DNA from: Candidatus Dadabacteria bacterium
GTDB taxonomy: Bacteria; Desulfobacterota_D; UBA1144; Nemesobacterales; Nemesobacteraceae
Assembly (NCBI GenBank): GCA_022819805.1
Contig: JAJEGO010000018.1
Span: 1 to 54,392, forward strand
DNA: 54,392 nucleotides
Direction: 5' to 3'
This document shows positions 22,118 through 54,392 of this stretch, piece after piece. The translations under genes and the position numbers were made by a program. Under the pieces are notes generated by a model. That model searched no databases, was not told where the DNA came from, and saw only the letters and a list, made by a program, of their open reading frames with translations. Numbering within the stretch: the stretch's first letter is position 1; every line of letters begins with the position of its first letter.

Positions 22118-22457
22118 TTTGCTAAGGTAACAGGTTTTAAGCGAGCCCGCAAAAAAGCAGACCGGGGAGGAAAACCAATATTTCATAATGGAGATTATCA
22201 AGCTAACTAGCCAAAGTCCCCTTTTCTCAAGTTTTTTCGGTAGGTTATGATACGGCGAAAAAATGGCAAAAAACAAGTTACCTTTGAGGGATTTCAGCGT
22301 GCCTCAGACCCTCTGTTTTGGTGTGTCACAAGTGCCTGAAATCATTAGGTCGCCATTTTCAGATTTTCGGGATCTGAGGGGTAAAGCCTCTGCGGTGACG
22401 GTAGCCAGTTACCCGTGTTTTTTATGAAGAGAAAAAATGAAAGGACAAGAAGTGGAA

Positions 22458-22721
22458 TTAACGAAAGATGAAATCAGGTGCGACAGGGCGCTTACCGGGG
22501 CGGTATGTGATGTATTCGGACGGCCTCGAGAAGGCTTTACGGAGGGCATCCTGTACGATACTGTCAGCCTCGTACTTAGCGGCGATTGTGTACGCTTTTT
22601 TAAGCTCACAGAACACCTCACAACTGACGCAACGTATCATGTCACTGCGACCTTCCTCCCTGACAAGTTTGGGGCGGCGGTTGCATCTACGGCATACAAG
22701 CTTCTTATTGACCGATTTCAT
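22458..22721 (-). CDS. Small hypothetical protein with two CxxC (Zn-ribbon-like)
   Basis: CRRC...CVSC in an 87-aa ORF; competing overlapping ORFs are less protein-like. Confidence 0.5.
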   Translation of the reverse strand: MKSVNKKLVCRRCNRRPKLVREEGRSDMIRCVSCEVFCELKKAYTIAAKYEADSIVQDALRKAFSRPSEYITYRPGKRPVAPDFIFR

Positions 22722-22884
22722 GCTTCACAAACTACCCAGAGTCTGCGTAACTAGTCAAGTATGCCTCCGCCAGAAGTGTTAATGACAGATGGGATTGTCC
22801 GCTTTTATGTTTCATGGCATAATCATCGGACAGGACAATTATCAGAAAAGCAATTGCAAGAAATGTTATCTACGGAGGATATTA

Positions 22885-23451
22885 ATGATAAATGTTGTTA
22901 CTATTATCGCTTTATTCTTGGGTCCATTGGTGGCGGTGTGGATTGCCCGGAGAATGGAGGACAGGCGCGCAAAACACGAACGGCGTATGAGCGTCTTCCG
23001 TGCCCTTATGTCTACACGTAGCAACGCATTGTCTTTTGACCACGTCTCTGCGTTAAACCTCGTTGAAATTGAATTCTATGACAATCCTGAAGTAGTTAAG
23101 AAGTGGAAAGCGTACTTTGACGACCTAGTTGAATATCCCAGACTGGAAGATGAAAAAATATCGGAGGGTCTTAGCGACGCAGAGATTGCCAGGAGACAGG
23201 CGAATTATGACAAGAGAGTAAAAGAGGGTCGTTCAAAACTTCTCACCGAACTCCTTTACGAAATGGCTCAAGTTCTCGGCTACGAGAAGATTAAAGTTCT
23301 TGAGATTCTGGAAGGTAGCTACTTCCCTCAAGGATGGGGTCGCATCGAGGCTGAACAGGGACTCATAAGGCAATATGCTATTGACCTGTATTTTGGAAGA
23401 ACGGCATTGCCCGTGCTTGTGCGCTACGAAGAACCACCAACCAATGGATAA
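22885..23451 (+). CDS. DUF6680-like protein with N-terminal TM
   Basis: GGAGG RBS before ATG 22885; 'FRALMSTR...HVSALNLVEIEF...LLYEMAQVLGY...YFPQGW' recalled as DUF6680-like. Confidence 0.7.
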   Translation: MINVVTIIALFLGPLVAVWIARRMEDRRAKHERRMSVFRALMSTRSNALSFDHVSALNLVEIEFYDNPEVVKKWKAYFDDLVEYPRLEDEKISEGLSDAEIARRQANYDKRVKEGRSKLLTELLYEMAQVLGYEKIKVLEILEGSYFPQGWGRIEAEQGLIRQYAIDLYFGRTALPVLVRYEEPPTNG

Positions 23452-23763
23452 CAAATCGTATATTTCCCCTCCATTTCTCTGCAAAAAATCGACCGTCCGT
23501 ATCTCGTAACTCGGTCCAAACACTGGAAAAATCACCTTCTTCAAAAAACTTTGAAAAAATTTTTAGTCTGGGTAATTAGCCGGGAAATGGCGATTCCATA
23601 ATGTTTTCAGGAAGTTAGACAAAAAACACAGAAATTCTTGGCTAGTTAGTTCGATAATCCCCTTCATAATATGTTGATTTATATCCATCCCAATTGTGGT
23701 ATATTGTTGATCTCCGCGTCTGGAAGGCTGTGGTGAATGCGCTCGTCCCCGTAAGCCACAGGT

Positions 23764-25008
23764 ATGCGACTCACGCTGGCTTCCTTAATTGCGACCGATT
23801 ACGATGAATCGCCACTGTCATATACCCGCCCTCGTCTGCGGAGAAGCCAAAACGTGAACCGACCCTCTTATCGTCTATTCGTACTCGGGGCTGGCTTCTC
23901 GGCCCCTGCGGGCCTGCCTTTGGGAAAGGATCTCCTTGAACGCGTCCGAGAGGATGTCCGAGACTTGTTTCAGCGCTTCGGCTGGAAAGGTACTCTGGAA
24001 CAGGAAATCGAAGAATGGTCCTCGCTGTATCCAGGTGAATCGATCGATCTGGAGCGCGTACTCGCATATAGCCACCGGAAGCACTATCTCGGTCTCCTAG
24101 GTCCCGACGAATACTTCGCAGATGGCAGCCGATCAATAGTCGCTATGCGGCAAGCAGTCCAACAGATACTCATTCAAGCAACTCCCAGCCCCACCCCGAA
24201 GCTCTACCGGGATTTTGCTCAGCGGCTTTGCCCCCGCGATGTTGTACTTACGTTCAACTACGACACTCTTTTGGAGCAAGCGCTCGATGACATCGGCAAG
24301 CCATACACCCTTACTCCCGAGTGGTGGCTCAAAACGAGCCGGGGTGACTCTGAACCAAAGTTCGTTGACCTCCTCAAGCTCCACGGGTCGATTGACTGGT
24401 ACGATCGCTACTACCTTGATGATGCTATGCGCTGGCACACCGAAGAGGGTAACGACGTACCGAACCGGGATCCGATCTTCGGCCCAGCTCCGACAGTTCT
24501 TTCGGAGCCTCTTTCACGAGGACAGACAGATGAGAGGTTCGGGAATCACATCCTGCCACGAGTTTTCCGCGTCCCCGACCACGCAACATACTTCCCCATC
24601 AAGGAGGGGGAAAACGTGTCAAGGGTCGTTCCCTTCTTTCTCCCGCCGGCGTACGACAAGCTGCTTGGGTACGCACCCATCCTGGATCTGTGGGAGAATC
24701 TTCATCGGAACCAGGATTATTCGTCTATCGTCATGATCGGCTACTCGATGCCTCCATATGACGGCTACGCATATGAGGCGCTGGGCCAACTCTTCGTTGA
24801 GTACCAACAGGGCGGCGATGCTACCGACTTGGAGCATCGGCGCGTGCCCATTCAACTGATCACGCTGGTTGATCCAGGGCAGCATGACCTCAAGCGTTTT
24901 CCGTTCCTAGATCCCGCCAAGACACGCATATGGAATCAAGGATTCTCCACAGATGCTCTCAACTGGATCGACTGGGGGGATGGCGCGGATCATCCCGTGG
25001 TTACATAA
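23764..25008 (+). CDS. SIR2-like (SIR2_2) NAD-binding protein
   Basis: VLGAGFSAPAGLP, LTFNYDTLLE, LLKLHGSIDW, IGYS; real start may be GTG 23854. Confidence 0.88.
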   Translation: MRLTLASLIATDYDESPLSYTRPRLRRSQNVNRPSYRLFVLGAGFSAPAGLPLGKDLLERVREDVRDLFQRFGWKGTLEQEIEEWSSLYPGESIDLERVLAYSHRKHYLGLLGPDEYFADGSRSIVAMRQAVQQILIQATPSPTPKLYRDFAQRLCPRDVVLTFNYDTLLEQALDDIGKPYTLTPEWWLKTSRGDSEPKFVDLLKLHGSIDWYDRYYLDDAMRWHTEEGNDVPNRDPIFGPAPTVLSEPLSRGQTDERFGNHILPRVFRVPDHATYFPIKEGENVSRVVPFFLPPAYDKLLGYAPILDLWENLHRNQDYSSIVMIGYSMPPYDGYAYEALGQLFVEYQQGGDATDLEHRRVPIQLITLVDPGQHDLKRFPFLDPAKTRIWNQGFSTDALNWIDWGDGADHPVVT

Positions 25009-25062
25009 CTTGGATGTGGCGGGAGCCAGTTCGGGTCGCGCCACAATCGAAAGATCGGCGCG

Positions 25063-25170
25063 GTGCCTTTCACAGCAAGAATCCCTAGGGAGGAGACCTT
25101 AGAAGCTATTCGTCAGGCGCTTTCGGGAAAAGGTCTTATCGAGTATAACGATGTTGATGAGCTCATGACT
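25063..25170 (+). pseudogene. C-terminal remnant of a RelB/DinJ-type antitoxin
   Basis: PFTARIPREETLEAIRQALSGKGLIEYNDVDELM resembles RelB/DinJ C-termini; no N-terminal RHH domain or toxin seen. Confidence 0.5.
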
Positions 25171-25247
25171 TTTGAGCAAGTTTTTTCATGGGTTTGTCTA
25201 GTTATCGCTATAATTCCCTTAAAAACAGGCGGAAATAATGCCCGTTT

Positions 25248-40600: not shown

Positions 40601-40866
40601 GTGGGCAGAAGGGCATCGGGCTTTTCCTTCTCTATTATTTTTTCCAGTATTTCGGGAACGAGCGGCTCTATGTAAGTCCTGTCGGCAAAGTCGGGGTCGG
40701 TCATTATGGTAGCCGGGTTGCTGTTTACGAGAACCACCCTGTAGCCTTCCTCCTTCAGCACCTTGCACGCCTGGGTGCCTGAATAGTCAAACTCGCAGGC
40801 CTGTCCTATGACTATCGGACCGGAGCCGATGACCATTATGGTTTTTATGTCAGTTCGCTTGGGCAT
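37678..40866 (-). CDS. carB: Carbamoyl-phosphate synthase large subunit
   Basis: [35 protein letters not shown], duplicated ATP-grasp, MGS domain. Confidence 0.99.
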
Positions 40867-41002
40867 GAAACGGAAAAGCTTGTAACAGGTTGCAAATATA
40901 TACTTAATAACGCGCTGACAGGCAATAAGAGAAATGTCCGTTTTCCGTGCGAGGGTCTATCCTTGCTAATACGTAGCGTATGTAGCAGCATCCCATTTTC
41001 CG

Positions 41003-41632
41003 ATGTCGCAACATATGTATAATGTATTTATGGGCGATGGCTTATCTCAACATGAAGTCGAACTGTTGAATGGTCAGGAACCATTTCACGGGCCGGGAGT
41101 CAAAGAACTGCTGCTGGTCGACTACTGGCGATGGTCAGGTTCTGTGCTTCTGGATAACACCACCCGCGGGATTCTGTCAGAATTTCTTATCGCTACAGCA
41201 CTAGGTCTCCACAAAAAACCAAGGAAAGAGTGGGATGAGTCTGATATCCGCATGGAATCCGGCACCTCAATTGAGGTTAAGAGCTCCGCATATGTGCAAT
41301 CGTGGGAGCAATCCAAAACTTCTGTTATCGAGTTCGGGATTGCTCCCCATAGAAGCTGGAACGCCGAAACTGGAGAGTACAGAGAAGGTGTTAAGCGTTG
41401 GACGGATATCTATGTATTCTGCGTTTTCACGGGGAAAGAACCTCTTCACCCGCTTGATACAAGCAAGTGGGATTTCTATGTTCTTCCAACGGAGGCGCTT
41501 GACCGGGAAGTTCCCGAGCAGAAAAGCATTCGACTGAATTCCCTCAAAAAACTCAAACCTTACGAGTGTCAATACGTTGACCTGAAAAAAACAATTGAGA
41601 ACATAGAGAACAGCATTAGAGAAAAAGCATGA
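41003..41632 (+). CDS. Hypothetical protein with PD-(D/E)XK-like nuclease motif
   Basis: RGILSEFLIA...WDESDI...SIEVKSSAY...DIYVFC; start uncertain. Confidence 0.65.
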   Translation: MSQHMYNVFMGDGLSQHEVELLNGQEPFHGPGVKELLLVDYWRWSGSVLLDNTTRGILSEFLIATALGLHKKPRKEWDESDIRMESGTSIEVKSSAYVQSWEQSKTSVIEFGIAPHRSWNAETGEYREGVKRWTDIYVFCVFTGKEPLHPLDTSKWDFYVLPTEALDREVPEQKSIRLNSLKKLKPYECQYVDLKKTIENIENSIREKA

Positions 41633-41811
41633 TAGCCCATCTCAAACTCTCGAACTGATCTGGAATCTATTTTCATGGGAATAGATGTCTATTTGGAACC
41701 TTGAGTAGATTATTAAGGGGACTTCCTACCTTTTATCAAGCGATAAATTTATATAACGATTTTATTTTTCAAAAACTTTTTCCGAGTTTTTCCATACTGT
41801 TTTTCCCATAA

Positions 41812-43071
41812 TCAGGCAGCAACTGCCTCCGGCACTTTTTTAAACTTCTTGTCAAACAACTCTCCCTTTTCCAGCAAAGAACAACACACAAGTAAAAGAC
41901 GGTCGCCCACAGTGCGAAGAGACCTTGCATGACTCAGTCCCCTGGCCCGTAACGACTTGTACCTGGACTTGCTTACCGGGTCATGTATAACGGCGACTCT
42001 TGCCAGATGATAAACCGCTTCCATTAGTCTTGGGGAAGCTGCGCGGCGTCGCGTAACATACTTGCTCTTACCCGACTGCTTCGTTACCGGGGCAGTCCCG
42101 GCAAAGCATCGCAGGGAGTTGTAGTCGCGGCGGCACAGCAGCTCATGAGCCTCTCCAAGCAACGCGCCCAGCACAATCATACCCACACCGGGAATTGACC
42201 GCAGGATTTCTATATCGCCTGGTTTTGCTTCCTTCCCCCTTCGGGCATTTTCTCGGGAAGCAATAATTTTGATAGTATCTTCGATTAAATTTTCCGTTTC
42301 GCTCAGTTGACGGTCAGCAACCTTGATTCGCTCAACAATGGTTTCTATATGCGCAACTCGACTGCGGACGGTTTCTTCCCGAAGGGTTATTTCCTGTGAA
42401 CGAAGAACCTTGAGCACTCCCTCGGTGTCAATACGCCGGATGCCGTGATGCTTGAGAAGCTTGCGCACCCTTGAGCGCCTGATTTTCCTTGCGGCAGCAG
42501 GGGTTGGTGCCAGCTCCCACAACTCAATGAGCCAAGGTCGCACAGCGTCACCGATAATCTCATTGAACTGGGGATAGTAACTCCACAGCAACTGACGCAT
42601 CCGATTCACCATACGGATTCGTTCCGCCACGAGTTCCTCTCTTGTACGCAGCAGTTCCCGCAGAACCGTGATGTCCGGATCCCGCGGCCTGACTCTGCGC
42701 AGGTGTCGACTGTCGGTGCGAAGCGCCTCTGCAAGCACCTGGGCGTCGCGACGGTCATCCTTGGCTCCGGATGGAGAGAATCGGTCTCTGAACCGGTCAA
42801 GCTGCTTGGGATTGACCGAGTGAACACAGAACCCTCTTTCCAAAAGACTTTCTACAACCGGACCATGGTTAACCTCGATTGAGACAGCGACATTATCCGT
42901 GGCTGAACCACAGGTTTTTAATATCCACTCGGCCATCTCGCAAAGACCTTTGCCTGTGTGGTCGAAAACCTTTTCTCCCAAAATAAAACCGTCTTGGTCG
43001 ATAACGCAGACTTGGTGGGAGGAAGAACCCCAGTCAATACCAGCAAAAAATAGTGTTTTATCATGTTCCAT
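41812..43071 (-). CDS. IS110-family transposase/recombinase
   Basis: RuvC-like DEDD (GIDWG, IEV, KDDRRDA), SIPGVG, FAGTAPVTKQSG; GGAGG RBS at 43081-43085 on the minus strand. Confidence 0.97.
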   Translation of the reverse strand: MEHDKTLFFAGIDWGSSSHQVCVIDQDGFILGEKVFDHTGKGLCEMAEWILKTCGSATDNVAVSIEVNHGPVVESLLERGFCVHSVNPKQLDRFRDRFSPSGAKDDRRDAQVLAEALRTDSRHLRRVRPRDPDITVLRELLRTREELVAERIRMVNRMRQLLWSYYPQFNEIIGDAVRPWLIELWELAPTPAAARKIRRSRVRKLLKHHGIRRIDTEGVLKVLRSQEITLREETVRSRVAHIETIVERIKVADRQLSETENLIEDTIKIIASRENARRGKEAKPGDIEILRSIPGVGMIVLGALLGEAHELLCRRDYNSLRCFAGTAPVTKQSGKSKYVTRRRAASPRLMEAVYHLARVAVIHDPVSKSRYKSLRARGLSHARSLRTVGDRLLLVCCSLLEKGELFDKKFKKVPEAVAA

Positions 43072-43094
43072 GATAAATTACCTCCGTGTGTAGT

Positions 43095-43260
43095 AGTCGG
43101 GTCTGCCGTGATGGTTACCTGATCCAGTACGGGTGCTCAGTGGCACGAACTTCCTACTGGGTATTCATCACGGCACTCGACCGAGGCACATGTCCCCCTT
43201 AGGCGCTCAAAAACGCTGAATTACATAAGGTAACTCCCGATCGAGTAGCCCGTGATAATC
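43095..43260 (-). ncRNA. Candidate IS110 bridge RNA (structured non-coding end upstream of the transposase)
   Basis: Stems tgccgtgatg(43104-13)/catcacggca(43166-75), ccagta/tactgg, gtgc/gcac, actcga(43175-80)/tcgagt(43241-46); the second stem-loop holds gaattacata, matching the insertion site; boundaries approximate. Confidence 0.65.
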
Positions 43261-43297
43261 TAATTCTGTGCTAAATAAAAGTTTTTAGGAAGGTACT

Positions 43298-43320
43298 GAA
43301 TTACATACATAAATAAAAAA
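43298..43320 (+). repeat. GGGAATTACATACATAAATAAAAA repeat, copy 1 (split by IS110; 5' GG at 41677-41678)
   Basis: gaattacatacataaataaaaaa is identical to 44578-44600. Confidence 0.9.
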
Positions 43321-43325
43321 TAAGG

Positions 43326-44549
43326 ATGGCTGCAAAGAAAGAGGTTGCTTCAAAAAGGAAGGTTGCGAAAAAGAAGACCGCGCGGCGTACGCACAAGGTC
43401 TGTAATAGGTGCGGTTTCGACTGCGCACTCAATGCCCGAACATGCAGTGAGTGTGGCAGCGAGAAGTTCGCGCCGGACTGGGTGATTGCCAAACGACCTG
43501 TCAACCGACAGGTCAGTGTCGAAGTGACCAAGTCAAATCCGAAGTTCGGAGAAGCTCAGGAACGTCTTACCCTGAGCAAGTGGTGGCCGGGCGGCAGTGC
43601 GACTTTTCACCTGCCCAATCTCGGGCAGTGGGAGGAAATCGAATGCATCATCAATAACGACCTTGCGCCGCTGATCGGCTGGAAGCCTGCCGATGAACTG
43701 GTCAAGTCAATCAAAAAGAAGTCAAAGAACGGTAAATCCGGTGCGGCGGGGGAAGACTATATAGAGCTGATGGACACGCACCCGGATTTTCTCAAGAAAC
43801 TGGTACAGGCGATTGATCCGAATAGGATATCAAAAAAGGAATTTGAAGATGTAGTCGAGATTTTCGGCAATATCTCGGATGCCCTAACGAATGCGAATGC
43901 CGGGTTCCGGGAAGCCTTTCTTGCTGTCGTTGAAAAACTCCCGAAACAGAAACAGCGTGCGCTTGAAGACCTCGACCTGCTTTTGCAAAGCTGGTCGTTA
44001 CAGGTCGTGACAAATGTCGCCCAACAAGTCAAGGCACGCATGGAGACGATTAAATTGTTCGAAAAGCAAATCCAGGACAAGAAGACGTTCGAGATTATCA
44101 GCGATAACTCCATCCACCGTATTCTTGAGCGCGCCATGTGGCTTGTTGACGAGCGCTACTGGCTTTTGCAGTCCAACAATACACTGCGCAAATTTATCGG
44201 CGAAGAAATGAGCAAGAAAGACAAGAAGAAGTACGGCAAAAAAAGACCGGATTTTGTCTGCGGCACCGTCGATAACAAACTCATTATCCTGGAGCTCAAA
44301 CGTCCTTCTCACAGTTTGACTGTTGAGGATTTAAATCAGCTTGAGGCCTACACGGTCATTGCCGAGGACTACAAGAAGTTCACCTCATACGAAGGCTATC
44401 TTGTTGGTAGTAAGGAAGATAGCGAGTTGCACCGCTATCTACGGCGGCGCTCAGGATTCAAGGTACTTCACTATGCAGACATCATCGAAAAGACGATGGG
44501 GCGCTACAAAGAGTTTCTCGATGCGATTGAATCCGATGGAGGTGCTTGA
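43326..44549 (+). CDS. Zn-ribbon + helical + C-terminal PD-(D/E)XK nuclease-like protein
   Basis: CNRC..CSEC; IHRILERAMWLVDERYW; RPDF..IILELKRP...QL..Y. Confidence 0.75.
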   Translation: MAAKKEVASKRKVAKKKTARRTHKVCNRCGFDCALNARTCSECGSEKFAPDWVIAKRPVNRQVSVEVTKSNPKFGEAQERLTLSKWWPGGSATFHLPNLGQWEEIECIINNDLAPLIGWKPADELVKSIKKKSKNGKSGAAGEDYIELMDTHPDFLKKLVQAIDPNRISKKEFEDVVEIFGNISDALTNANAGFREAFLAVVEKLPKQKQRALEDLDLLLQSWSLQVVTNVAQQVKARMETIKLFEKQIQDKKTFEIISDNSIHRILERAMWLVDERYWLLQSNNTLRKFIGEEMSKKDKKKYGKKRPDFVCGTVDNKLIILELKRPSHSLTVEDLNQLEAYTVIAEDYKKFTSYEGYLVGSKEDSELHRYLRRRSGFKVLHYADIIEKTMGRYKEFLDAIESDGGA

Positions 44550-44575
44550 TGAGTATTCTGTTAGGCGACCCTCTT

Positions 44576-45089
44576 GGGAATTACATACATAAATAAAAAA
44601 CCGTAAAATCTAAAAATATTTTTTTGTATGATCTAATCTGCATAAACAATAAGGAGGTTTTTTATTATGGCTGAAGAAAAAATTGCAACTAAAGTTTTTT
44701 CCATTCATACGCCGGATGGAGAAAGATTTGACTTTAAAGTACAGCAAATATCTGAAAATCAATTAAGAGTATTTGAAATTTTAGACGAGGACCACCCCAT
44801 AATTGTCACTTTTAGAGAGACTGATCCCGTTTGCACAATGAATTTTCAGAACGAAACGGGAATTGTAAAAGAAATAAAATCATCTGAACTAACAAATACC
44901 AATGCCAAATTCCAGATAATATTTGGAGAGATAAAATTACTATTAAAGGAAAGATTAGATAAAGCAAAAGCCTATAATTCATTAATTGAAGATGTAAAAG
45001 ATTTTGTTGATTTTCTTCCCAAAATAAGAGAGATTTGAACTCACGAACAATTAACCTCCCTCCTATTTTTATTTATGTATGTTATTCCC
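44576..45089. mobile_element. Non-autonomous cassette bounded by 24-bp terminal inverted repeats (44576-44599 / 45066-45089)
   Basis: gggaattacatacataaataaaaa vs reverse complement gggaataacatacataaataaaaa (1 mismatch); one cargo ORF, no transposase. Confidence 0.7.
44667..45038 (+). CDS. Hypothetical AT-rich cargo protein
   Basis: AAGGAGG RBS, 123-aa ORF inside the IR pair. Confidence 0.75.
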   Translation: MAEEKIATKVFSIHTPDGERFDFKVQQISENQLRVFEILDEDHPIIVTFRETDPVCTMNFQNETGIVKEIKSSELTNTNAKFQIIFGEIKLLLKERLDKAKAYNSLIEDVKDFVDFLPKIREI

Positions 45090-45367
45090 AAATTATGTCA
45101 GCCCTTGTTTGCCACTCTTAGCATAAAGAAGAAGTGAACAAACCATTTTTTCTCTATATAGGTTGTTTTATCTCTGCTGCTTATCAAATACCTAAAACAA
45201 AGCAGACTGAATTGGGAAGGTCTATTGTGACACTAACTGGTTCTTTAAAGCATCTTCTTAGCAATGAGGTCAGCAAGGCCATCAAGGTAATAATTGAAGG
45301 GAGTTATAATTAACACTTAAGATATTTTCTATCGTTTCTTTCTTGTTCTTTATTCTGCTCTAAAACC

Positions 45368-45395
45368 TTGACATACACCTTTTGATGATTAGTTT
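45368..45395 (+). promoter_or_regulatory. Possible sigma70-type promoter for rpoH-dnaK
   Basis: TTGACA at 45368, then TAGTTT 16 bp later; GGAGG RBS downstream. Confidence 0.35.
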
Positions 45396-45417
45396 GAGAA
45401 GTGGAGGTACATGTTAG

Positions 45418-46278
45418 ATGCAGACGGCAGTTGCAACGTGCGATTCTCTTTCGGTTTTCATGCGGGAGATGGAAAAACATCCGCTTCTCTCAAAAGAGGA
45501 AGAGCACGCGCTTGCGGTCAGATATTACGAAAACGAAGATCTTGAAGCGGCCAACAAACTTGTGGTGTCAAACCTCAGGTTCGTGGTGAGAATCGCTTCT
45601 GAGTACAGATCTTACGGTTTCCCGATGATGGACCTTGTTCAGGAAGGTTCGATAGGACTGATGCGCGCCGTTCAGAAATTCAATCCCTACAAGGGCTACA
45701 GGCTAATATCCTACGCGGTGTGGTGGATCAGGGTAAGGATCCAGAACCACATAATGAAGTTCTGGAGCAACGTAAAGATCGGAACGACGCAGTCCCAGAG
45801 AAAGCTTTTCCAGAGAATAGAAGGGGCAAAGCGCAAGCTCGGGATAACAGCCGCCAGCATGGAAGATGACGACATAAGTCGCCTGGCCGACCATTTCGGC
45901 GTCAAGGAAGAGGAAATCGGAGAGATGCAGGTTCGCGCTTCCAAAAGAGATCTCTCCCTCTCGGAGCGTCCCGCAGGGGACGACTCCTCGGCCACTTACG
46001 GGGAGTTGCTCCCTGACCCGTCGGATAACCAGGAGCAGGTGCTCGGCGAACTCGGGTTCGACAGCCTTGCCAGGGAGAATCTGCGCGAAGCTCTCGAGAT
46101 GCTTTCAGAGAGGCAGAAAAAGGTGATAAACGAGAGGTATTTCACCGAACCTCCAAGAAAACTCCACGAAATAGCCCGTGACCTCGGGGTTTCCCAGGAG
46201 AGGGTAAGGCAGATACAGGCCGAGTCCATAGGGAAACTCAGGGCGCACATGGCCGAAAAACTAGAAATTCACCCGTAA
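45418..46278 (+). CDS. rpoH: RNA polymerase sigma factor, sigma-32/RpoH-like
   Basis: LVVSNLRFVV, DLVQEG.IGLM.AV.KF.P, YAVWWI, RpoH box VKIGTTQSQRKLF, VSQERVRQI. Confidence 0.9.
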   Translation: MQTAVATCDSLSVFMREMEKHPLLSKEEEHALAVRYYENEDLEAANKLVVSNLRFVVRIASEYRSYGFPMMDLVQEGSIGLMRAVQKFNPYKGYRLISYAVWWIRVRIQNHIMKFWSNVKIGTTQSQRKLFQRIEGAKRKLGITAASMEDDDISRLADHFGVKEEEIGEMQVRASKRDLSLSERPAGDDSSATYGELLPDPSDNQEQVLGELGFDSLARENLREALEMLSERQKKVINERYFTEPPRKLHEIARDLGVSQERVRQIQAESIGKLRAHMAEKLEIHP

Positions 46279-46304
46279 CAAGAAGAAAATCCAGGAGGAA
46301 TTAA

Positions 46305-48224
46305 ATGGCTTCTAAGATAATAGGAATAGACCTTGGAACAACCAATTCATGCGTCGCCATCGTCGAGGGCGGCGAACCGAAAGTGATAATCAACGAGGAA
46401 GGCACGAGAACCACCCCGTCGGTGGTCGCGTTCCTAAAGGACGGAGACGAGGTTCTGGTCGGCGGACCGGCAAAGCGCCAGGCCGTGGCCAACCCTGAGA
46501 ACACCGTCTACTCTACCAAAAGGCTTATGGGCCGCAGGTTCGAGGAGATATCGAGCGAAGCTGACAGCCTAGCCTACAAGGTAGTGAAATCAGGCAAATC
46601 AGACGCCTGGGTCGAGGTCGAGGGAAAAGAGTACTCTCCCCCGCAGGTTTCAGCGCATGTGCTAACGAAGCTTAAAAAGGCTGCCGAGGACTACCTGGGT
46701 TCCGAAGTCCAAGAAGCCGTTATCACCGTTCCAGCGTATTTTAACGACAGCCAGCGCCAGGCAACAAAAGACGCCGGAAAGATAGCTGGTCTTGACGTAA
46801 AGCGCATAATAAACGAGCCGACCGCGGCGGCGCTTGCCTACGGGTTTGACAAGAAAAAAGAGGGCATGATAGTCGTCTACGATCTCGGGGGTGGAACTTT
46901 CGACGTATCGGTGCTTGAGGTCGGAAACAACGTAATAGAGGTAAAGTCCACAAACGGTGACACCCATCTCGGAGGAGACGATTTTGACAAGAGGGTCATT
47001 GATTACATTGTCTCCGAGTTCAAAAAGGATTCAGGAATAGACCTCGGGGCGGACAAGATGGCCGTGCAGAGACTTAGGGAAGCGGCAGAGAAGGCCAAGA
47101 TCGAGCTTTCAAACACCGTCGAGACGGAAATAAACCTGCCGTTTATAACGGCCGATGCAAGCGGTCCCAAGCACCTGGTGCTTAAGATAACACGCTCCAA
47201 GTTCGAGCAGCTGATCGAGGATCTCGTAAAAGGCACCCTCAAGCCCTGCGAGCAGGCCCTCAGGGATGCGGGGCTTCGCCCGGGCGAGATAGCCGAGGTG
47301 ATACTGGTCGGCGGATCGACCAGGATTCCGCTTGTGCAGAAAGTCGTGACTGACTTTTTCGCAAAGGAGCCGAGCAGGGGGATAAACCCAGACGAGGTGG
47401 TTGCCATGGGGGCCGCCATACAGGCGGGCGTGCTCGGCGGAGACGTAACCGACGTGCTCCTTCTAGACGTGATACCTCTCTCGCTTGGCATAGAAACCCT
47501 TGGAGGGGTAATGACCACCATAATCGAGAGAAACACGACCATTCCCACAAAGAAAAGCCAGGTTTTCACAACGGCAGAAGACAACCAGAACTCGGTTGAG
47601 ATCCACGTGCTGCAGGGAGAGCGGCAGATGGCGGCCGACAACAGGACGCTTGCCAGGTTCATCCTGTCGGGAATTCCCGCGGCGGCAAGGGGGATTCCCC
47701 AGATAGAGGTCACTTTTGACACCGACGCTGACGGAATACTTCATGTATCCGCGAAGGACAACGCAACCCAGAAGGAGCAGAAGGTCAAGGTCGAGGCTTC
47801 AAGCGGGCTAAGCAGCGACGAGATTGACTCCATGGTCGATGAAGCCGAGAAGATGTCCGAGAAAGACAAGGAGAAAAGCGAGCAGGTTCAGAAAAGAAAC
47901 CAGCTTGACGAACTTGTCTACAGGACGGACAAGAGTTTCCAGGAACTTGGCGACGGCCTATCCGAGGATGAGAAGAAAGAACTTGAACAGGCCCTTGAGG
48001 AAGGAAGGGAGGCGCTTAAGTCGGATGATCCGGGCAAGATCGACCAAGCGACGGAGAAAATAACCGCCGTTTCTCATAAGCTTGCGGAGCTTATGTACAA
48101 GAAGCAGCAGGAAGAAGCCGCCGCGGGAGCCGGAGAGGGCGGAGCTGAGGGCCAGGCCCCAGAACAGGGAAATTCCACCTCGGGCGATGACGTGATAGAC
48201 GCCGAATTTACCGAACAAAAGTAA
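46305..48224 (+). CDS. dnaK: Chaperone DnaK
   Basis: [42 protein letters not shown]-terminus. Confidence 0.99.
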
Positions 48225-48254
48225 TAGCGCTGGGTCTCACAGAGCTAGACAATT

Positions 48255-48677
48255 ATGCAGAATGATAAAGAAAGCAAAAATGATAGAAATTTTTACGTAG
48301 ACCATCTCATAAGGGGGTATTACTCAGCTAATTTCAACTACGACAGGAGTATCATGACCGTGGCGGGCGGTGCCCTGACGGTCTTCGTTGTTTTTATAGA
48401 CAAGATGGTGGATATGGACTCGGTTCAATGCTTTCCACTGATGAAGTTTTCTTGGATTCTCTTTGCCTTAAGCTTGGCTGTGATAATCTTTCGCCATTAT
48501 TCCGGGGTAAAAGCACATGAGAAAGCCCTTAAACAGTTGGATAAGGGAAAGGAGAAGAAAAATGAGCCGACGGGAGGCAAATGGAACAAAATCTCAGAAT
48601 ACTGTCTTTTTACCTCCTGCATATTAGTGAGTTTTGGATTTATTTTGGCCGCGATCTTTATTTACAAAAACATATAG
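48255..48677 (+). CDS. Hypothetical 3-TM membrane protein
   Basis: Three hydrophobic helices in 140 aa. Confidence 0.7.
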   Translation: MQNDKESKNDRNFYVDHLIRGYYSANFNYDRSIMTVAGGALTVFVVFIDKMVDMDSVQCFPLMKFSWILFALSLAVIIFRHYSGVKAHEKALKQLDKGKEKKNEPTGGKWNKISEYCLFTSCILVSFGFILAAIFIYKNI

Positions 48678-48688
48678 GAGGTAAAGTG

Positions 48689-48889
48689 ATGTCCAAGAAA
48701 TCAGATAGAATTACTCAAGAAATTCGTAAGATTAAAGAAAAATATCCCCCTGGTCGCCATTCCGTTCCCCACATCCCGGAGGAGAACTTTCCTAGTTCAA
48801 CCGAGGAACCTGAACCGCCGGCAGGGGGCCCTTCAGAGGAAAGCGACAATTCGGTCCAAGAAGATAGTTCTGGAGACAATACCGAGTAG
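48689..48889 (+). CDS. Small basic-then-acidic/proline-rich hypothetical protein (66 aa)
   Basis: AGGAGG RBS overlapping the upstream stop; ATG 48689. Confidence 0.5.
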   Translation: MSKKSDRITQEIRKIKEKYPPGRHSVPHIPEENFPSSTEEPEPPAGGPSEESDNSVQEDSSGDNTE

Positions 48890-49059
48890 TAAGTTTTGTC
48901 TTGCCCGTTTGTTGGTTGTTTTGCCGAGTTCTAGCCCTGAGAATCTTTTCGAGCATATTCCAAAGTTTCGGGAAGTTGTCAGATTCAGAAACAACGGCGA
49001 GAGAACAGAATAAGAAAGTATGCCAAGAATAATCGACACATGAAATTCATGATAAGGAG

Positions 49060-49818
49060 ATGAACATGACTCAAGGATTCAATGATTTGGACAAGAGGTT
49101 CACAGTGCGCTCTAAAAGTTTTCAGCAGGAGTTTCAGCACCTAAAAGACCCGGAGAATGCATTCGGAATTCGTTTCACCGCAGTACCCGTGGGTGATGAA
49201 GTCTGCTTGGATTGTGTTTTTCGCCACGAAACAGTCGCAGAAAAATTTAAAGAACCGCAGCCTAAGGTTTTCATTCAGAAAAGTGGAAGGAGCAGACGGC
49301 TTCTAAAAGATGAGAGGATCTTCTCTTCCCTCAGATGGTGGCCTATTCCAAATGGTGGCGCACGGCAAGCACTTGCAGTTGGTGACACCAAGTTCTCTGT
49401 TCATAGTTATCGGGAACTTCACCGCGACGGACTTATAGAAATGGGCTTTGTTTCAAACTTTCATTATGAAGGTGATCTTTGCCTTCTGTCCGACTTGCCT
49501 TTTGTTGTTTTCTCTAATCTGATGGTATGGACCAACCATATCAGAAATCAAGTTTCTGTTCCCACGGCGGAATATGCTATTGAAACTGAGATTCGTACCA
49601 GAGGCACTTATGTGATCGTAACAGATGAGTATGCAGCTAAAGATTTTGCAATAAGAACTGGAACGGTATTTCCGCCGGAAACAAGAAGTTCTCTCAGACA
49701 TCGGCTTGGTAATTCTGGAGAAATTTCAGAGCTCGTTGCATCGTTTTATTATGATTTTTGGGATTTTTTCCCTAAGTATGTTGCTGCCAAAGAGGTAGTT
49801 TTTACGATAGAAGATTGA
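49060..49818 (+). CDS. Hypothetical protein resembling the C-terminal domain of AlbA_2/Schlafen-like proteins
   Basis: AAGGAG RBS; 'GIRFTAVPV...YRELHRDGLIE' pattern; no N-terminal AlbA domain seen. Confidence 0.5.
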   Translation: MNMTQGFNDLDKRFTVRSKSFQQEFQHLKDPENAFGIRFTAVPVGDEVCLDCVFRHETVAEKFKEPQPKVFIQKSGRSRRLLKDERIFSSLRWWPIPNGGARQALAVGDTKFSVHSYRELHRDGLIEMGFVSNFHYEGDLCLLSDLPFVVFSNLMVWTNHIRNQVSVPTAEYAIETEIRTRGTYVIVTDEYAAKDFAIRTGTVFPPETRSSLRHRLGNSGEISELVASFYYDFWDFFPKYVAAKEVVFTIED

Positions 49819-49885
49819 ACGGGTGATTAAATTTTTCCCCGCACGGTATTTCAGATAAAAAGGAGTCCGAATTTTAAGACAACGA

Positions 49886-50326
49886 ATGAGCCAACATCGT
49901 ATACATGTTTTCATAAGCCACTCATGGTCATATTCGCATCACTACTCCACCCTGCGCAGATGGATATTTGAAGAAAAGAACCATCTCGGACAGGCTTCGC
50001 TGAGATTTCGCGATTTCTCTGTGCCGAAAGATAATCCGATCCATAAAGTGTCCAACGCCAAGGCTTTGAGGGAAGCCATTTACAGAAAGATTGAAAGGAG
50101 TCACGTTATAGTTATTCCATTAGGTATGTATGCAAACTACAGCAATTGGATTAAAAAAGAGATTCAAGGCGCAAAGCTAAAATCAAAGCCGATTCTGGGA
50201 GTCAATCCATGGGGTCAACTGCGAAGCCCTTCAGTTGTGGGGAATGCCGCTCAAAACACGGTCGGTTGGAATAAAAAAAGCATCATTCGAGGGATCTGGG
50301 AGTTGTATCGCAATGACCGATCTTGA
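49886..50326 (+). CDS. TIR domain protein (ThsB/DUF1863-like)
   Basis: VFISHSW, DFSVP..PIH, VIVIPLGMY...SNWIKKEI (putative catalytic Glu), KPILGV.PWG, VGWN. Confidence 0.9.
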   Translation: MSQHRIHVFISHSWSYSHHYSTLRRWIFEEKNHLGQASLRFRDFSVPKDNPIHKVSNAKALREAIYRKIERSHVIVIPLGMYANYSNWIKKEIQGAKLKSKPILGVNPWGQLRSPSVVGNAAQNTVGWNKKSIIRGIWELYRNDRS

Positions 50327-50735
50327 CCATAAGCTTGAGATCTACAAGGTTTACATTTCCACCATTACGGCCAATGAGAACCGCCGACAGCAGGCATCAG
50401 TCGTATATCTTGGCATGGTTGCGGCAATCGTTACTGCAGTTGGTGTTGTTAGCAATAGGATGCCGTTGATTTATCCGGCTTCGTTAATTTTCTTGATATC
50501 GGCGATCTGGTTTTTAACTATCAGATATTTTCGCAGGTTAGCAAAGGCGAAGTTTTCAGTGGTTTCTGAAATAGAGAAAGATCTTCCTATTGCCCCCTTT
50601 GAAATGGAATGGGAGATATTAAGCGCCGGAAAGAACAACCGAATCAGTTTGACTCATCTGGAGATGTTTCTTCCCTTGTTTATTGCTTTGGGTTGCCTAG
50701 CTTACATTGTTTTCCATGTCGTTCCTCGTTGTTAA
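50313..50735 (+). CDS. 3-TM membrane protein (RipA-like oligomeric membrane protein family) coupled to the TIR gene
   Basis: EIYKVY...RRQ...W...I..F.RL.KAKF.V..IE..LP..PF..EW...L..LE..LP; overlaps the TIR stop by 14 bp. Confidence 0.75.
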   Translation: MTDLDHKLEIYKVYISTITANENRRQQASVVYLGMVAAIVTAVGVVSNRMPLIYPASLIFLISAIWFLTIRYFRRLAKAKFSVVSEIEKDLPIAPFEMEWEILSAGKNNRISLTHLEMFLPLFIALGCLAYIVFHVVPRC

Positions 50736-50785
50736 TTAGGCAAGAACTATGCGTGTAATTTATGGATAGGATGGTCAATATTTTT

Positions 50786-51939
50786 GGGAATTACCAAATT
50801 AAGTTGACTGCTTTTCTTGCTTATTAAGTGGGAATTATTAAGTGAGCACAATGAGGTATGGATTTGGAACTTCAGCGAATCCAATCGAGTAAAGAAAACT
50901 CAGGTAAAATAACAAAGCTTGCTCTTAGGGTTGCAAAGTCTTTCTGCGGGCGAGCTTAGCTTGTAATTCCCAGAGAAAGGATTTACGTTATGGCTCGAAA
51001 AATTTCAGCATCTCAACTGCGTAGCAAACTTCGTCAGATTCAAAACAAAAATAGACAGGCTGTAGATAAGTATAACCGCGAAGTTCGTAAAGTTAACCGG
51101 AAGCTTAAGCAGTCTGTTGATCAATACAACAATCAAGTTCGAGAATATAATAGAAGAGTTCGGGCAAATCAACGAAGAATTAAGTCGGAGCTTAACAGAC
51201 TTCAGTCAAGAAAAGTATCAGTTCGCTATCAAGTGATAACAACATCTGCCATATCTCTTAACACTCACTACGAAATTCTCAATGCTAAGGAACAAGAGTT
51301 TGAAAACACACATTTTGGTAATGTTTTCCTTGATCTATCTGAAAAAGAAAACGCCAACAGCCTGCAAGTCTCAAACGTTCTGGAGTCTGATTCAGGTTCA
51401 GAGCAGATAATTGCAGACTTATCTTCATTGAGCCATACGGAAATCAGTGGCGATCTTGAATCAATCTCACATGATCTGAAAGACAGGTGGGAGGGAGCTC
51501 TGTTTTCATTGAGTCCTAGGAACCCTGATGCGGCACGTCATTTCTGTACAAGTGCTCGGGAGATACTTGTTAAGATTCTGGATACTGCTGCACCTAATGA
51601 CGCTGTGAAAAGCACTTTTCCTGGTTGTGAAACCACAGACCAAAATGTTCCAATTCGAAAAGAAAAGATCAGATATTTGCTTAAGCGGGCAGGGATAATA
51701 AATAATTCTGCAGTAAATTTCGTCGATGAAAATGTTAAAAATGTTCTTGAACTTATTCAAATGTTAAGCGGTGGTACACACGAGCCTTCGGGAAAATTCA
51801 GTATTAATCAACTCATGGTTATTAAAACGAGAGTCGAGGACGCAATAACATATCTTTTCTCTATTCAAGAACACCAAATATAAAAGAGCTTAACTATTTG
51901 CTCTTTATAACTTACTGTCAACTCAACTTGGTAATTCCC
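50786..51939. mobile_element. Non-autonomous cassette bounded by 25-bp terminal inverted repeats (50786-50810 / 51915-51939)
   Basis: gggaattaccaaattaagttgactg vs reverse complement gggaattaccaagttgagttgacag (22/25). Confidence 0.7.
50990..51883 (+). CDS. Coiled-coil + predicted pPIWI-associating nuclease-like domain
   Basis: Basic YN..VR coiled-coil N-terminus; W.GA..L...NPDAARHFCTSAREIL..IL...AP...V...R.EKIRYLL...GTH. Confidence 0.65.
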   Translation: MARKISASQLRSKLRQIQNKNRQAVDKYNREVRKVNRKLKQSVDQYNNQVREYNRRVRANQRRIKSELNRLQSRKVSVRYQVITTSAISLNTHYEILNAKEQEFENTHFGNVFLDLSEKENANSLQVSNVLESDSGSEQIIADLSSLSHTEISGDLESISHDLKDRWEGALFSLSPRNPDAARHFCTSAREILVKILDTAAPNDAVKSTFPGCETTDQNVPIRKEKIRYLLKRAGIINNSAVNFVDENVKNVLELIQMLSGGTHEPSGKFSINQLMVIKTRVEDAITYLFSIQEHQI

Positions 51940-52118
51940 CTTTATTCCTCTTCTTTTAGAATAAAAGAGTGATCAAACCATCCTTCCAACCACATTCCGA
52001 TTACCCAGAAATAACAATTCAGGCAATTAAGAGATTTACTTTCAAGAGAAGGACTGTTCAATCTTAAAATATGGTATGATCTTCAAACCAATTTTGCAAA
52101 TTATCTAGAAGTTCCAAT

Positions 52119-54110: not shown

Positions 54111-54166
54111 TCTGTGTAGAACTGTATATAATCCCAAAAGATTAATTCGAATATAATTTCCCGGTT

Positions 54167-54392
54167 ATGAATGAAAACAAAGTCTTAAGAATGAGCTTCG
54201 ACCCCCAGACCATAGTGCATCTGGGGATAAAGATGTATTCTCGAATTCCCAATGCCATTGCAGAGTTAATTGCGAATTCCTACGACGCAGATGCCGGAGA
54301 GGCAAAAGTAAAGCTTTACGACAAGGTCAGCGAGAAGAGAATCGAGGTTGTCGATGACGGAGTCGGGATGGATTTTGCTGAAATTAACGAAA
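54167..54392 (+). CDS. GHKL (HATPase_c_3/MORC-like) ATPase, truncated by the window end
   Basis: Hand translation: MNENKVLRMSFDPQTIVHLGIKMYSRIPNAIAELIANSYDADA...IEVVDDGVGM. Confidence 0.85.
   Translation, partial: MNENKVLRMSFDPQTIVHLGIKMYSRIPNAIAELIANSYDADAGEAKVKLYDKVSEKRIEVVDDGVGMDFAEINE

What the first reader, a model, noticed from the sequence alone, without database searches (positions are those of the whole stretch)
41677..51939. Family of transposase-free single-gene cassettes bounded by GGGAATTAC terminal inverted repeats
At least seven related ends occur only in the accessory DNA: 41677/43298 (split), 44576, 45089 (rc), 50786, 50830, 50971 (rc), 51939 (rc). They pair by subtype: CATACATAAAT ends bracket the 123-aa ORF (and, with copy 1, also the Zn-ribbon nuclease); CCAA.TT.AGTTGAC ends bracket the pPIWI-nuclease-like gene. 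As I recall it, the motif resembles the ggnnatTAT end consensus of ISNwi1-group IS1595 elements, which carry passenger genes. No such transposase is in this window and I found no 8-bp target duplications. Inferred: a mobile-cassette route delivering defence-like genes into islands, mobilised in trans.
Basis: partly seen in the sequence, partly recalled or inferred. Interest (0 to 1): 0.78.

Follow-up and report, generated by a model that had tools for sequence, protein, structure and literature searches.

The report
Transposase-free IS1595 gene cassettes
The repeated GGGAATTA-type ends are the terminal inverted repeats of IS1595-family insertion sequences, and the window's copies are transposase-less derivatives that carry single accessory genes, a known kind of mobile element found here in a sponge-associated bacterium.

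Summary
The ends are real: GGGAATTAY occurs 8 times in the window against 1.17 expected, 0 of 100 shuffles reaching 8. Two pairs are long inverted repeats.

One coordinate is wrong. The "split" end is split by an IS110-family element, but its left half is the G run at 41717-41720, not 41677.

22190-23662 is a transposase-free element with a perfect 8-bp duplication.

The IS1595 reading holds:
- The genome has four intact IS1595 transposase genes inside the same kind of ends; three have perfect 8-bp duplications.
- In congeners the window's exact A-type 24-mer bounds autonomous IS1595 elements.
- Empty sites exist: 22185-25222 is missing in at least 9 congeners, and a B-type cassette of G008 is absent from the window.

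Caveats:
- The window's two cassettes have no duplication.
- No A-type transposase is assembled in this genome.
- Only some cargo looks defence-like.

This is a new member of a known kind (mobile insertion cassettes). Two side finds are more unusual: multi-copy TnpB cassettes with these ends, and an IS110 whose bridge-RNA-like loop matches the end's tip.

The parts
41717..41720 (+). Left remnant (G run) of the A-type end that the IS110 element splits
   Evidence: The intact orthologous end in G008 (L034 6560) has the G run directly followed by AATTACATAC.... Junction comparison of IS110 copies.
41721..43297 (-). IS110-family element: transposase 41812-43071 (-), 5' non-coding region 43072-43297. 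Boundaries are +/-2 nt because of the G run.
   Evidence: PF01548 E 1.5e-36, PF02371 E 2.6e-14. NF033542 IS110 family RNA-guided transposase E 1e-53. A second copy is split over the ends of C60 and C68. Unitig depth 70.7 against 17-21 for the flanks.
43298..43323 (+). Right part of the split A-type end (A0), just upstream of the 407-aa gene
   Evidence: 23 of 23 identical to 44578-44600 (D9). G008 carries window 43298-44601 at 96% with the end intact.
43326..44549 (+). 407-aa cargo gene: possible N-terminal zinc ribbon and C-terminal nuclease-like region. Function is weakly supported.
   Evidence: No Pfam hit. Weak hits only: PADLOC Cas4 E 2.6e-4, NCBIfam BbrUII/HgiDII restriction enzyme E 6e-6, far below its cut-off. 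PDB only eL37 zinc-ribbon-like at E 0.2.
44576..44601 (+). A-type left inverted repeat (A1)
   Evidence: Homology with G008 ends just after it, at 44601.
44667..45038 (+). 123-aa cargo ORF, no recognised family
   Evidence: No hit in Pfam, PADLOC, NCBIfam or PDB. No DNA match among the matches listed for 40 relatives (66 weaker matches were not listed).
45064..45089 (-). A-type right inverted repeat (A2). The pair 44576-45089 is 514 bp, 29% G+C, with no target duplication.
50786..50811 (+). B-type left inverted repeat
50830..50971 (.). Possible nested 142-bp miniature element with weakly similar ends and no duplication
   Evidence: sequences. 13 of 18 identical by inspection. Inconclusive.
50990..51883 (+). 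297-aa cargo gene, predicted pPIWI-associated nuclease family, with no Argonaute beside it
   Evidence: PF18165 E 9.4e-41. PADLOC Aga_Nuclease E 3e-8. A full-length match in G000 only among 120 genomes of the phylum; G042 holds a 42-aa fragment, G009 and G092 weak partial matches.
51914..51939 (-). B-type right inverted repeat. The pair 50786-51939 is 1154 bp, with no target duplication.
54111..54136 (-). Solo end just after the 663-aa helicase-like gene (52119-54110). No left partner was found.
22190..23662 (+).
   Evidence: PF20385 E 2e-45.
23663..25218 (-). One-ended remnant with a right end at 25193-25218; cargo is a 414-aa SIR2_2 protein (23764-25008). Together with 22190-23662 it is absent from at least 9 congeners.
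   Evidence: Empty sites in relatives join window 22182-22185 to 25220-25230. PF13289 E 5e-9. PADLOC SIR2 / Aga_SIR2 E 1.7e-9.

Best explanation
The GGGAATTA(C/T) sequences are the outer tips of about 25-nt terminal inverted repeats of IS1595-family insertion sequences.

The lineage (a small-genome bacterium found in sponge metagenomes) holds several diverged IS1595 subfamilies. Each has its own inner repeat sequence, and many carry passenger genes. The window's copies are non-autonomous derivatives, that is mobile insertion cassettes: two matching ends around one cargo gene and no transposase.

Inferred mechanism. A cognate IS1595 DDE transposase made elsewhere binds the subtype-specific inner part of the ends and cleaves at the conserved tip. 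It then inserts the segment into AT-rich DNA with an 8-bp target duplication.

Such elements have piled up around the conserved sigma-dnaK pair and next to carB. In the window, later events have blurred them: an IS110 insertion into one tip, nesting, and probably recombination between ends. That would account for the missing duplications of the two cassettes. They may no longer be mobile in this genome, since no A-type transposase is assembled here.

Shown: ends, pairing, duplications, association with transposases, empty sites. Inferred: trans-mobilisation, and how the duplications were lost.
For: Ends and chance.

This genome. 7 PF12762 matches. Four are intact genes inside matching inverted repeats:
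- C17 27702-30322, duplication AATGGAAA
- C55 25297-27084, AAATGTTT
- C11 66045-68543, ATTTCTTT
- C57 8385-13013, none
. NCBIfam transpos_IS1595 E 4e-55.

Transposase-free elements with perfect 8-bp duplications: C17 995-2290 (AAAACCCC), C68 8749-9470 (ATTACTTT), window 22190-23662 (TTCATAAT).

Genus.
- The A-type 24-mer (up to 3 mismatches) is in 22 of 36 genomes, with 0 control hits. The B-type is in 12 of 36, 0 control hits.
- The 13-nt tip gives 255 matches (my sum of the table) against 3 control matches in the 36 genus genomes.
- A-type ends bound autonomous elements in G023:C2 and G051:C1. They also bound transposase-free ones in G023:C1 (CAAAATTA), G047 (TAAATTTA) and a 123-bp one in G009, duplication 7 of 8.
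- More autonomous elements with duplications: G011, G021, G033, G051.

Empty sites.
- Window 22185-25222 is missing in G008, G011, G014, G050, G049, G023, G017, G006 and G003. The right edge falls 2-12 nt from the end at 25218.
- G008 has an 850-bp B-type cassette, duplication 7 of 8, where the window has the uninterrupted site near 20538.

27 of 35 congeners have an IS1595 transposase at E <= 1e-10.

Family features (8-bp duplications, zinc finger plus DDE domain) and the concepts MIC, MITE and transporter IS: passages read in PMC8101967 and PMC3129680.
Against: - Both are single-copy.
- No A-type transposase is in this assembly, which is 93% complete in 71 contigs. All 3 A-type ends of G000 lie in the window. 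The best resident end matches 16 of 24, and resident transposases are 35-48% identical to A-type ones.
- The segment with the 407-aa gene has two ends in the same orientation and no right end of its own, in G008 too. A simple two-ended cassette does not explain this.
- C57 and several elements in relatives also lack duplications.
- Eight congeners have no IS1595 transposase at E <= 1e-10. Four of them (G024, G014, G006, G015) still carry close relatives of the TnpB cassette. So ends can outlast the enzyme, or another enzyme moves them.
- Nothing here shows transposition directly.
- Promoter-like sites in the ends are no more frequent than in shuffles: 4 against 3.9, and 5 against 4.0.
Confidence: 0.85

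Rival explanations
1. The window's A and B cassettes derive from IS1595 but are dead relics. They would be products of recombination or deletion between ends that never moved as the units now seen, and cannot move in this genome.
For: No duplications. Single copy; B's cargo is full-length in G000 only among 120 genomes. No cognate A-type transposase in the assembly. The 407-aa segment lies between two ends of the same orientation. An IS110 sits in one tip. carB and dnaK lie far apart in all relatives, which points to a rearrangement or a mis-join here.
Against: The repeat arms are still 96% and 91% complementary. The same end types flank elements with duplications in congeners. The assembly is incomplete, so a transposase may be unassembled.
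Confidence: 0.4
2. The motifs are sites for some other function (a regulator's operator, or an integron-like or tyrosine-recombinase site) and not transposon ends.
For: Several ends lie just upstream of genes in one orientation (43298, 44576, 50786). One promoter-like match overlaps the end at 44580-44609.
Against: Perfect 8-bp duplications at many independent pairs. IS1595 transposases sit inside the same ends. Empty sites are cut at the ends. Promoter-like sites are at chance level. No integrase search was run.
Confidence: 0.03
3. The ends belong to, and are moved by, a machinery other than the IS1595 transposase. For example the TnpB cassettes, the most numerous bearers of such ends, might move themselves.
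For: TnpB cassettes with these ends reach 7 copies per genome. Some sit in genomes where no IS1595 transposase was found at E <= 1e-10: G015, G024, G006, G014.
Against: TnpB is known as an RNA-guided nuclease, not a transposase (established knowledge of IS200/IS605). An 8-bp duplication with GG-initial inverted repeats is the IS1595/Merlin signature (PMC8101967). Simple 1.3-kb ISs in G033 hold only an IS1595 transposase between such ends.
Confidence: 0.05

Closest known systems
Mobile insertion cassettes (MICs), for example MIC231 derived from IS231 in the Bacillus cereus group; also MITEs and solo inverted repeats
   Same: The ends of a known IS family surround passenger DNA with no transposase and are presumed to be moved by a cognate transposase made elsewhere. 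The concept is stated in PMC3129680 (passages). MICs carrying qnrS2 or effector genes appear in the listing.
   Different: The parent family here is IS1595. In the searches I ran I saw no paper describing IS1595-derived MICs. The Siguier 2009 IS1595 paper is not in the library and was not read. The host is an uncultured sponge-associated lineage. Cargo includes a pPIWI-associated nuclease homologue, a SIR2 protein and TnpB.
IS1595 family, including its passenger-carrying 'transporter IS' members (Siguier, Gagnevin and Chandler 2009; only the citation was seen)
   Same: Transposase with an N-terminal zinc ribbon and a DDE_Tnp_IS1595 domain, GG-initial inverted repeats, 8-bp duplications, passenger genes inside the ends (family features from PMC8101967).
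   Different: The window's elements lack the transposase. The resident transposases are at most about 43% identical to annotated plasmid-borne IS1595 transposases. Group-level assignment (ISNwi1) rests on recall.
[quoted passage not shown]
   Same: An IS110/IS1111-type element inserts at a fixed position inside the terminal repeat of another transposon family. Only the title of Partridge and Hall 2003 was seen, in the reference list of PMC11187229.
   Different: Here the target is the tip of IS1595 ends. The element is of the IS110 type, with its non-coding region upstream of the transposase.

Membership tests
IS1595 family (autonomous partners of the cassettes) | Transposase with a DDE_Tnp_IS1595 catalytic domain | tested here: met
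   PF12762 E 1e-37 to 4e-42 in four G000 genes and E about 1e-46 in the A-type elements of G023 and G051. NF033547 E 4e-55.
IS1595 family (autonomous partners of the cassettes) | N-terminal zinc-ribbon domain | tested here: met
   PF12760 in all four G000 transposases and both A-type ones. C11's scores 21.4 bits, below the 25.4 cut-off.
IS1595 family (autonomous partners of the cassettes) | 8-bp target duplication and inverted repeats starting GG | tested here: met
   Perfect 8-bp duplications at 3 of 4 G000 transposase-bearing elements and at G023:C2, G051:C1 (two elements), G011, G021 and one G033 element. The feature is taken from PMC8101967.
IS1595 family (the window's own cassettes) | The element encodes its own transposase | tested here: not met
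   No PF12762 match on contig C19. The cassettes are derivatives, not insertion sequences.
ISNwi1 group of IS1595 | Group-specific end consensus and transposase clade as curated in ISfinder | not testable with these tools
ISfinder is not available. The two closest annotated plasmid copies showed no clear matching ends.
Mobile insertion cassette (MIC) | Paired ends of an IS family around passenger gene(s), with no transposase | tested here: met
   44576-45089 (123-aa ORF), 50786-51939 (pP_pnuc_1), 22190-23662 (DUF6680).
Mobile insertion cassette (MIC) | Target duplication typical of the parent family | tested here: inconclusive
   Not met for the A and B cassettes. Met for 22190-23662, C17 995-2290 and C68 8749-9470, and for transposase-free A- and B-type elements in G023, G047 and G008, the last at 7 of 8.
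Mobile insertion cassette (MIC) | A cognate transposase with matching ends is available in the cell | tested here: inconclusive
   B-type ends match resident C17 and C55 ends at 18 of 24. A-type matches at best 16 of 24, and A-type transposases were found only in congeners. G023 holds both autonomous and non-autonomous A-type elements.
IS110 family with bridge RNA (the element splitting end A0) | DEDD transposase, a structured non-coding region with guide loops, and site-specific insertion | tested here: met
   PF01548 and PF02371, NF033542. Every right junction seen lies in an IS1595-type tip: window, C68, G023, G021, G009, plus two further flanks in X1. The predicted internal loop carries segments matching both target halves, with a G/A to C/T co-variation. 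No Rfam match. RNA expression not tested.

The most novel reading that the evidence does not exclude
In this sponge-associated lineage IS1595 ends may have become a general, layered gene-delivery platform.

(i) Diverged transposase subfamilies move subtype-matched, transposase-free cassettes that bring singleton nuclease, SIR2 and restriction-modification-type genes into a few AT-rich hot spots.

(ii) The most successful cassette carries TnpB, an RNA-guided nuclease otherwise tied to IS200/IS605 and IS607. Its gene runs into the right end, so that its guide RNA may read the end itself and help the cassette spread or persist. This would be a prokaryotic counterpart of Fanzor genes riding DDE transposons.

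(iii) An IS110 element uses a bridge RNA aimed at the shared tip, and so parasitises or disables the whole family.
Probability: 0.25. Interest if true: 0.75.

Novelty: new member of a known kind. Interest (0 to 1): 0.5.

Why it matters
The finding gives a concrete mechanism for how small accessory genes reach the variable pockets of very small genomes in an uncultured sponge-associated lineage. Some of these genes are nuclease-, SIR2- or restriction-modification-like. They ride between IS1595 ends and do not need their own transposase.

It also supplies a simple annotation rule for these genomes: a 13-nt tip, a subtype-specific inner block and an 8-bp duplication.

The side observations may matter more than the main one. 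TnpB genes packaged between DDE-transposon ends in many copies would widen the known vehicles of TnpB in prokaryotes. An IS110 whose guide loop matches another transposon's tip is a natural example of programmable targeting of one mobile element by another.

Tried and rejected
- 41677 as the left half of the split end: rejected.
- Rfam scans of the window's right part and of five TnpB cassette loci: no match at E <= 1.
- The search for related loci with the 297-aa cargo in genome contigs: 55 pattern matches, none confirmed.
- Phylum-wide protein search for the same cargo: besides G000, only a 42-aa fragment in G042 with no end nearby, and two weak partial matches.
- A left partner for the end at 54136: best candidate 17 of 26, rejected.
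- The pair C8 12661-13637 (20 of 30 identical, STAS gene inside, no duplication): treated as chance.
- Homology between the window's 209-aa ORF next to carB and the 209-aa cargo of G013's A-type cassette: none; equal length is coincidence.
- Inverted repeats around the two closest annotated plasmid IS1595 genes: nothing comparable.
- PDB sequence searches with the 407-aa and 123-aa cargo: nothing significant.
- Promoter and terminator scans of both cassettes: counts at shuffle level.
- A copy elsewhere in G000 of the flanks of the A and B cassettes, which might explain the lost duplications: none.
- A 61-nt weak inverted match in one X1 contig beyond the window's end: not followed.
- Contigs of four runs laid on 40500-54392: no contig joins across a cassette or across the IS110. 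The unitigs break at the IS110, so the adjacency across it is neither confirmed nor refuted.
- No structure prediction, complex prediction or large protein-database search was run. They would not bear on what the ends are.

Full report
**What is there**

The window is contig C19 of a 1.57-Mb assembly: 71 contigs, 93% complete. GGGAATTAY occurs 8 times against 1.17 +/- 1.06 expected, and 0 of 100 shuffles reach 8. With one mismatch to GGGAATTAC there are 26 matches against 13.8 expected.

Two pairs are long inverted repeats:
- 44574-44599 / 45066-45091: 26 nt, 96% complementary. It encloses a 123-aa ORF.
- 50786-50808 / 51917-51939: 23 nt, 91%. It encloses a 297-aa gene of the predicted pPIWI-associated nuclease family (PF18165, E 9e-41).

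Neither pair has a target duplication. No IS1595 transposase lies in the window.

**Corrections to the observation**

The end upstream of the 407-aa gene is indeed interrupted. 43298-43320 equals 44578-44600 at 23 of 23.

The interrupting DNA is an IS110-family element. Its transposase is at 41812-43071 on the minus strand (PF01548, PF02371, NF033542). Its left boundary is not at 41677:
- A second copy, split over the ends of contigs C60 and C68, is alike only from about 41714 onward.
- Three copies in congeners agree.
- G008 carries the orthologous segment (window 43298-44601 at 96%) with an uninterrupted end, whose G run is directly followed by the rest of the tip.

The left remnant is therefore the G run at 41717-41720. 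The GGGAAT at 41677 is unrelated.

A scan with all known end variants found four more ends in the window: 22190(+), 23662(-), 25218(-) and 54136(-).

**What the ends are**

Genome-wide pairing of inverted ends gave 7 pairs with at least 23 of 30 identical positions, and 4 of them have perfect 8-bp flanking repeats.

| Element in G000 | Size | Content | 8-bp duplication |
|---|---|---|---|
| C17 27702-30322 | 2621 bp | IS1595 transposase, decayed passenger | AATGGAAA |
| C55 25297-27084 | 1788 bp | IS1595 transposase, 147-aa ORF | AAATGTTT |
| C11 66045-68543 | 2499 bp | IS1595 transposase, methyltransferase-like ORF | ATTTCTTT |
| C57 8385-13013 | 4629 bp | IS1595 transposase, restriction-modification-type genes | none |
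| C17 995-2290 | 1296 bp | TnpB only | AAAACCCC |
| C68 8749-9470 | 722 bp | small ORFs | ATTACTTT |
| window 22190-23662 | 1473 bp | DUF6680 gene | TTCATAAT |

The four transposases carry DDE_Tnp_IS1595 and the IS1595 zinc ribbon. Cargo calls are; the last three rows are.

The ends share the outer 9-13 nt and differ in an inner block. The four resident transposases are only 33-45% identical to each other. That fits subtype-specific recognition of the inner block, which is an inference.

These features are the ones a paper I read in passages gives for the IS1595 family: 8-bp duplication, zinc finger plus DDE domain, ends starting GG (PMC8101967).

**The family in related genomes**

- The window's A-type 24-mer (up to 3 mismatches) is found in 22 of 36 genomes of the genus, with no hit to the reversed control. 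The B-type end is in 12 of 36, again with no control hit.
- The 13-nt tip gives 255 matches against 3 control matches in the 36 genus genomes (my sum of the table). It is also frequent in one genome of another family, G033, with 42 matches.
- With exactly the A-type ends, G023:C2 61005-64086 and G051:C1 120463-124431 are autonomous. Each has a 309-aa IS1595 transposase plus passenger ORFs, with duplications TAAATTTT and AACATATT.
- With the same ends, G023:C1 909746-911337 (CAAAATTA), G047 (641 bp, TAAATTTA) and a 123-bp element in G009 (7 of 8) have no transposase.
- So G023 holds both an autonomous and a non-autonomous A-type element, the situation in which trans-mobilisation is expected.
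- Further autonomous elements with duplications were seen in G011, G021, G033 and G051.
- 27 of 35 congeners have an IS1595 transposase at E <= 1e-10.

**Presence/absence polymorphism**

Window 22185-25222 is missing in at least 9 congeners: G008, G011, G014, G050, G049, G023, G017, G006 and G003. In these the two flanks abut. The right edge of the extra DNA falls 2-12 nt from the end at 25218.

The extra DNA has two parts:
- the duplication-flanked DUF6680 element;
- beside it, a one-ended remnant carrying a SIR2_2 gene.

The reverse case also exists. G008 has an 850-bp B-type, transposase-free cassette (185-aa ORF, duplication 7 of 8). It sits at a site that is uninterrupted in the window near 20538.

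**Why the window's two cassettes lack duplications**

This is not settled. The surroundings are heavily reworked:
- The conserved block is only the sigma-dnaK pair (45289-48235, 74-93% identical across the genus). Every genome has different DNA on both sides.
- carB and dnaK are far apart in all relatives.
- Homology between the window and G008 stops just after the second A-type end, at 44601. Different DNA follows the same end in the two genomes.
- The 407-aa gene lies between two ends of the same orientation.

Recombination between ends, nesting and deletion would explain these facts, but that is inference. The contigs of the likely source runs break at the IS110. The join carB-IS110-407-aa gene in C19 is therefore not independently verified.

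No A-type transposase is assembled in G000, so the A cassette may be stranded there.

**Cargo**

Defence-like hits:
- the pP_pnuc_1 / Aga_Nuclease homologue;
- the SIR2_2 protein;
- restriction-modification-type genes in C57 and a methyltransferase-like ORF in C11;
- weakly, the 407-aa protein: Cas4 E 2.6e-4, and a restriction-enzyme family at E 6e-6, far below its cut-off.

No hits:
- the 123-aa ORF, the DUF6680 protein and the C55 and C68 ORFs among the PADLOC models;
- all 8 cargo proteins tested from relatives' elements.

The 297-aa gene has a full-length match in G000 only among 120 genomes of the phylum, which fits recent acquisition. The defence label is therefore only partly supported.

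**Side observation 1: TnpB cassettes**

The 1296-bp element on C17 holds only a 410-aa TnpB (NF040570, E 4e-70).
- Relatives at 75-84% identity occur in up to 7 copies per genome. 27 of 36 genus genomes have a match at E <= 1e-20.
- Of 26 loci examined, 8 have matching ends with a perfect 8-bp duplication, after correcting a one-base offset in my script's output by hand. These are L097, L098, L099, L100, L102, L107, L111 and L112.
- Three have 7 of 8: L103 and L108 (probably the same site) and L106.
- In the remaining 15, either no pair was found by my crude search or the flanks differ.
- G049 has a similar 1257-bp element.
- The gene's stop lies in or next to the right end.
- A conserved block lies about 20 nt before that end, and a predicted stem pairs an internal copy of the tip with the end. 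The support is thin: 5 of 59 pairs show compensatory change, and they are not in that stem.
- My search for TnpB together with IS1595 listed 9 papers. By title and abstract start, none is about this arrangement (only the listing was seen).

**Side observation 2: the IS110 targets the tip**

- Every right junction seen lies in the tip of an IS1595-type end, whatever the inner sequence: window, C68, G023:C5, G021:C1 and G009:C86.
- In two sponge metagenome runs the IS110 unitig has depth 70.7 and 81.7 against 17-22 for the flanks. In X1, three different right flanks all begin with an A-type-like end. X1 may be the source of this DNA, so it is not independent support.
- The 5' non-coding region folds, by prediction, into a long stem. 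Its internal loop carries on one side a segment identical to the left target half, and on the other a segment matching the right flank plus the IS end.
- The one variable position of the first segment (G or A) follows the C or T of the target tip in 4 of 5 copies. The fifth gives a G opposite T.
- A second stem-loop carries segments matching the two ends of the IS.
- This is the layout described for bridge or seek RNAs (abstracts of PMC11208160 and PMC11187229 seen).
- Targeting of another transposon's terminal repeat is known for IS4321 and IS5075 (title seen in a reference list).

**Context**

Earlier notes of this scan call the genome a member of the Dadabacteria from sponges. I did not test the name. 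The two runs that hold the stretch almost fully are labelled sponge metagenome.

**Verdict**

The IS1595 reading is supported.

The thing is a family of IS1595-derived mobile insertion cassettes, a known kind of element (PMC3129680), in a lineage where it had not been described in the papers I could search. The founding IS1595 paper was not available to me.

Noticed in passing
G000 C17:995-2290 (L001/L097); relatives' loci L098-L126, L086: TnpB-only cassettes of about 1.29 kb bounded by IS1595-type inverted repeats with 8-bp duplications, up to 7 copies per congener genome. The tnpB stop lies in or next to the right end, and a conserved block sits about 20 nt before it. TnpB riding between DDE-transposon ends seems undescribed in the one search I ran.
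   Followed up: partly
window 41721-43297; C60 and C68 contig ends; L035-L037: An IS110-family element inserted in the tip of IS1595-type ends in every copy seen. Its upstream non-coding region has a predicted internal loop whose two sides match the two target halves, with one co-varying position. Depth suggests 3-4 copies.
   Followed up: partly
window 40000-48235 compared with relatives: carB (37678-40866) and the sigma-dnaK pair (45418-48224) are neighbours here but far apart in all relatives searched. The join runs through the multi-copy IS110, where unitigs break, so it is either a real rearrangement or an assembly mis-join.
   Followed up: partly
window 45289-48235 and L025-L033: The sigma-70 and dnaK pair is a conserved island flanked on both sides by DNA that differs in every genome of the genus: a hot spot for accessory genes.
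   Followed up: partly
window 49886-50735: A ThsB-like TIR-domain gene overlaps a gene of the octameric membrane protein family (8xMP). The same pair lies directly beside dnaK in G022 at 83% identity. It may be a two-gene defence module with no ThsA.
   Followed up: no
window 52119-54110: A 663-aa helicase/NTPase-like protein (weak AAA_19, NERD+UvrD and Nhi-like hits) ends 26 nt before the solo end at 54136. Relatives at 70-79% identity sit at other loci in G023, G008 and G022.
   Followed up: no
L049 1501-1530 (G008:C10:251020-251049): The left end of G008's B-type cassette is followed at once by an inverted copy of the 9-nt tip, so that 30 nt read like two abutted tips.
   Followed up: no
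G000 C55 25297; L138 (G051); L131 (G011): Elements of the C55 end subtype are flanked by nearly the same 8-bp duplication (AAATGTTT, GAATGTTT) in three genomes. This is either one orthologous old insertion or a strong target preference.
   Followed up: no
L063 about 2245-2280 (G013 A-type cassette): A stretch inside the cassette looks like the reverse complement of a tRNA 3' half. Not checked with a tRNA finder.
   Followed up: no
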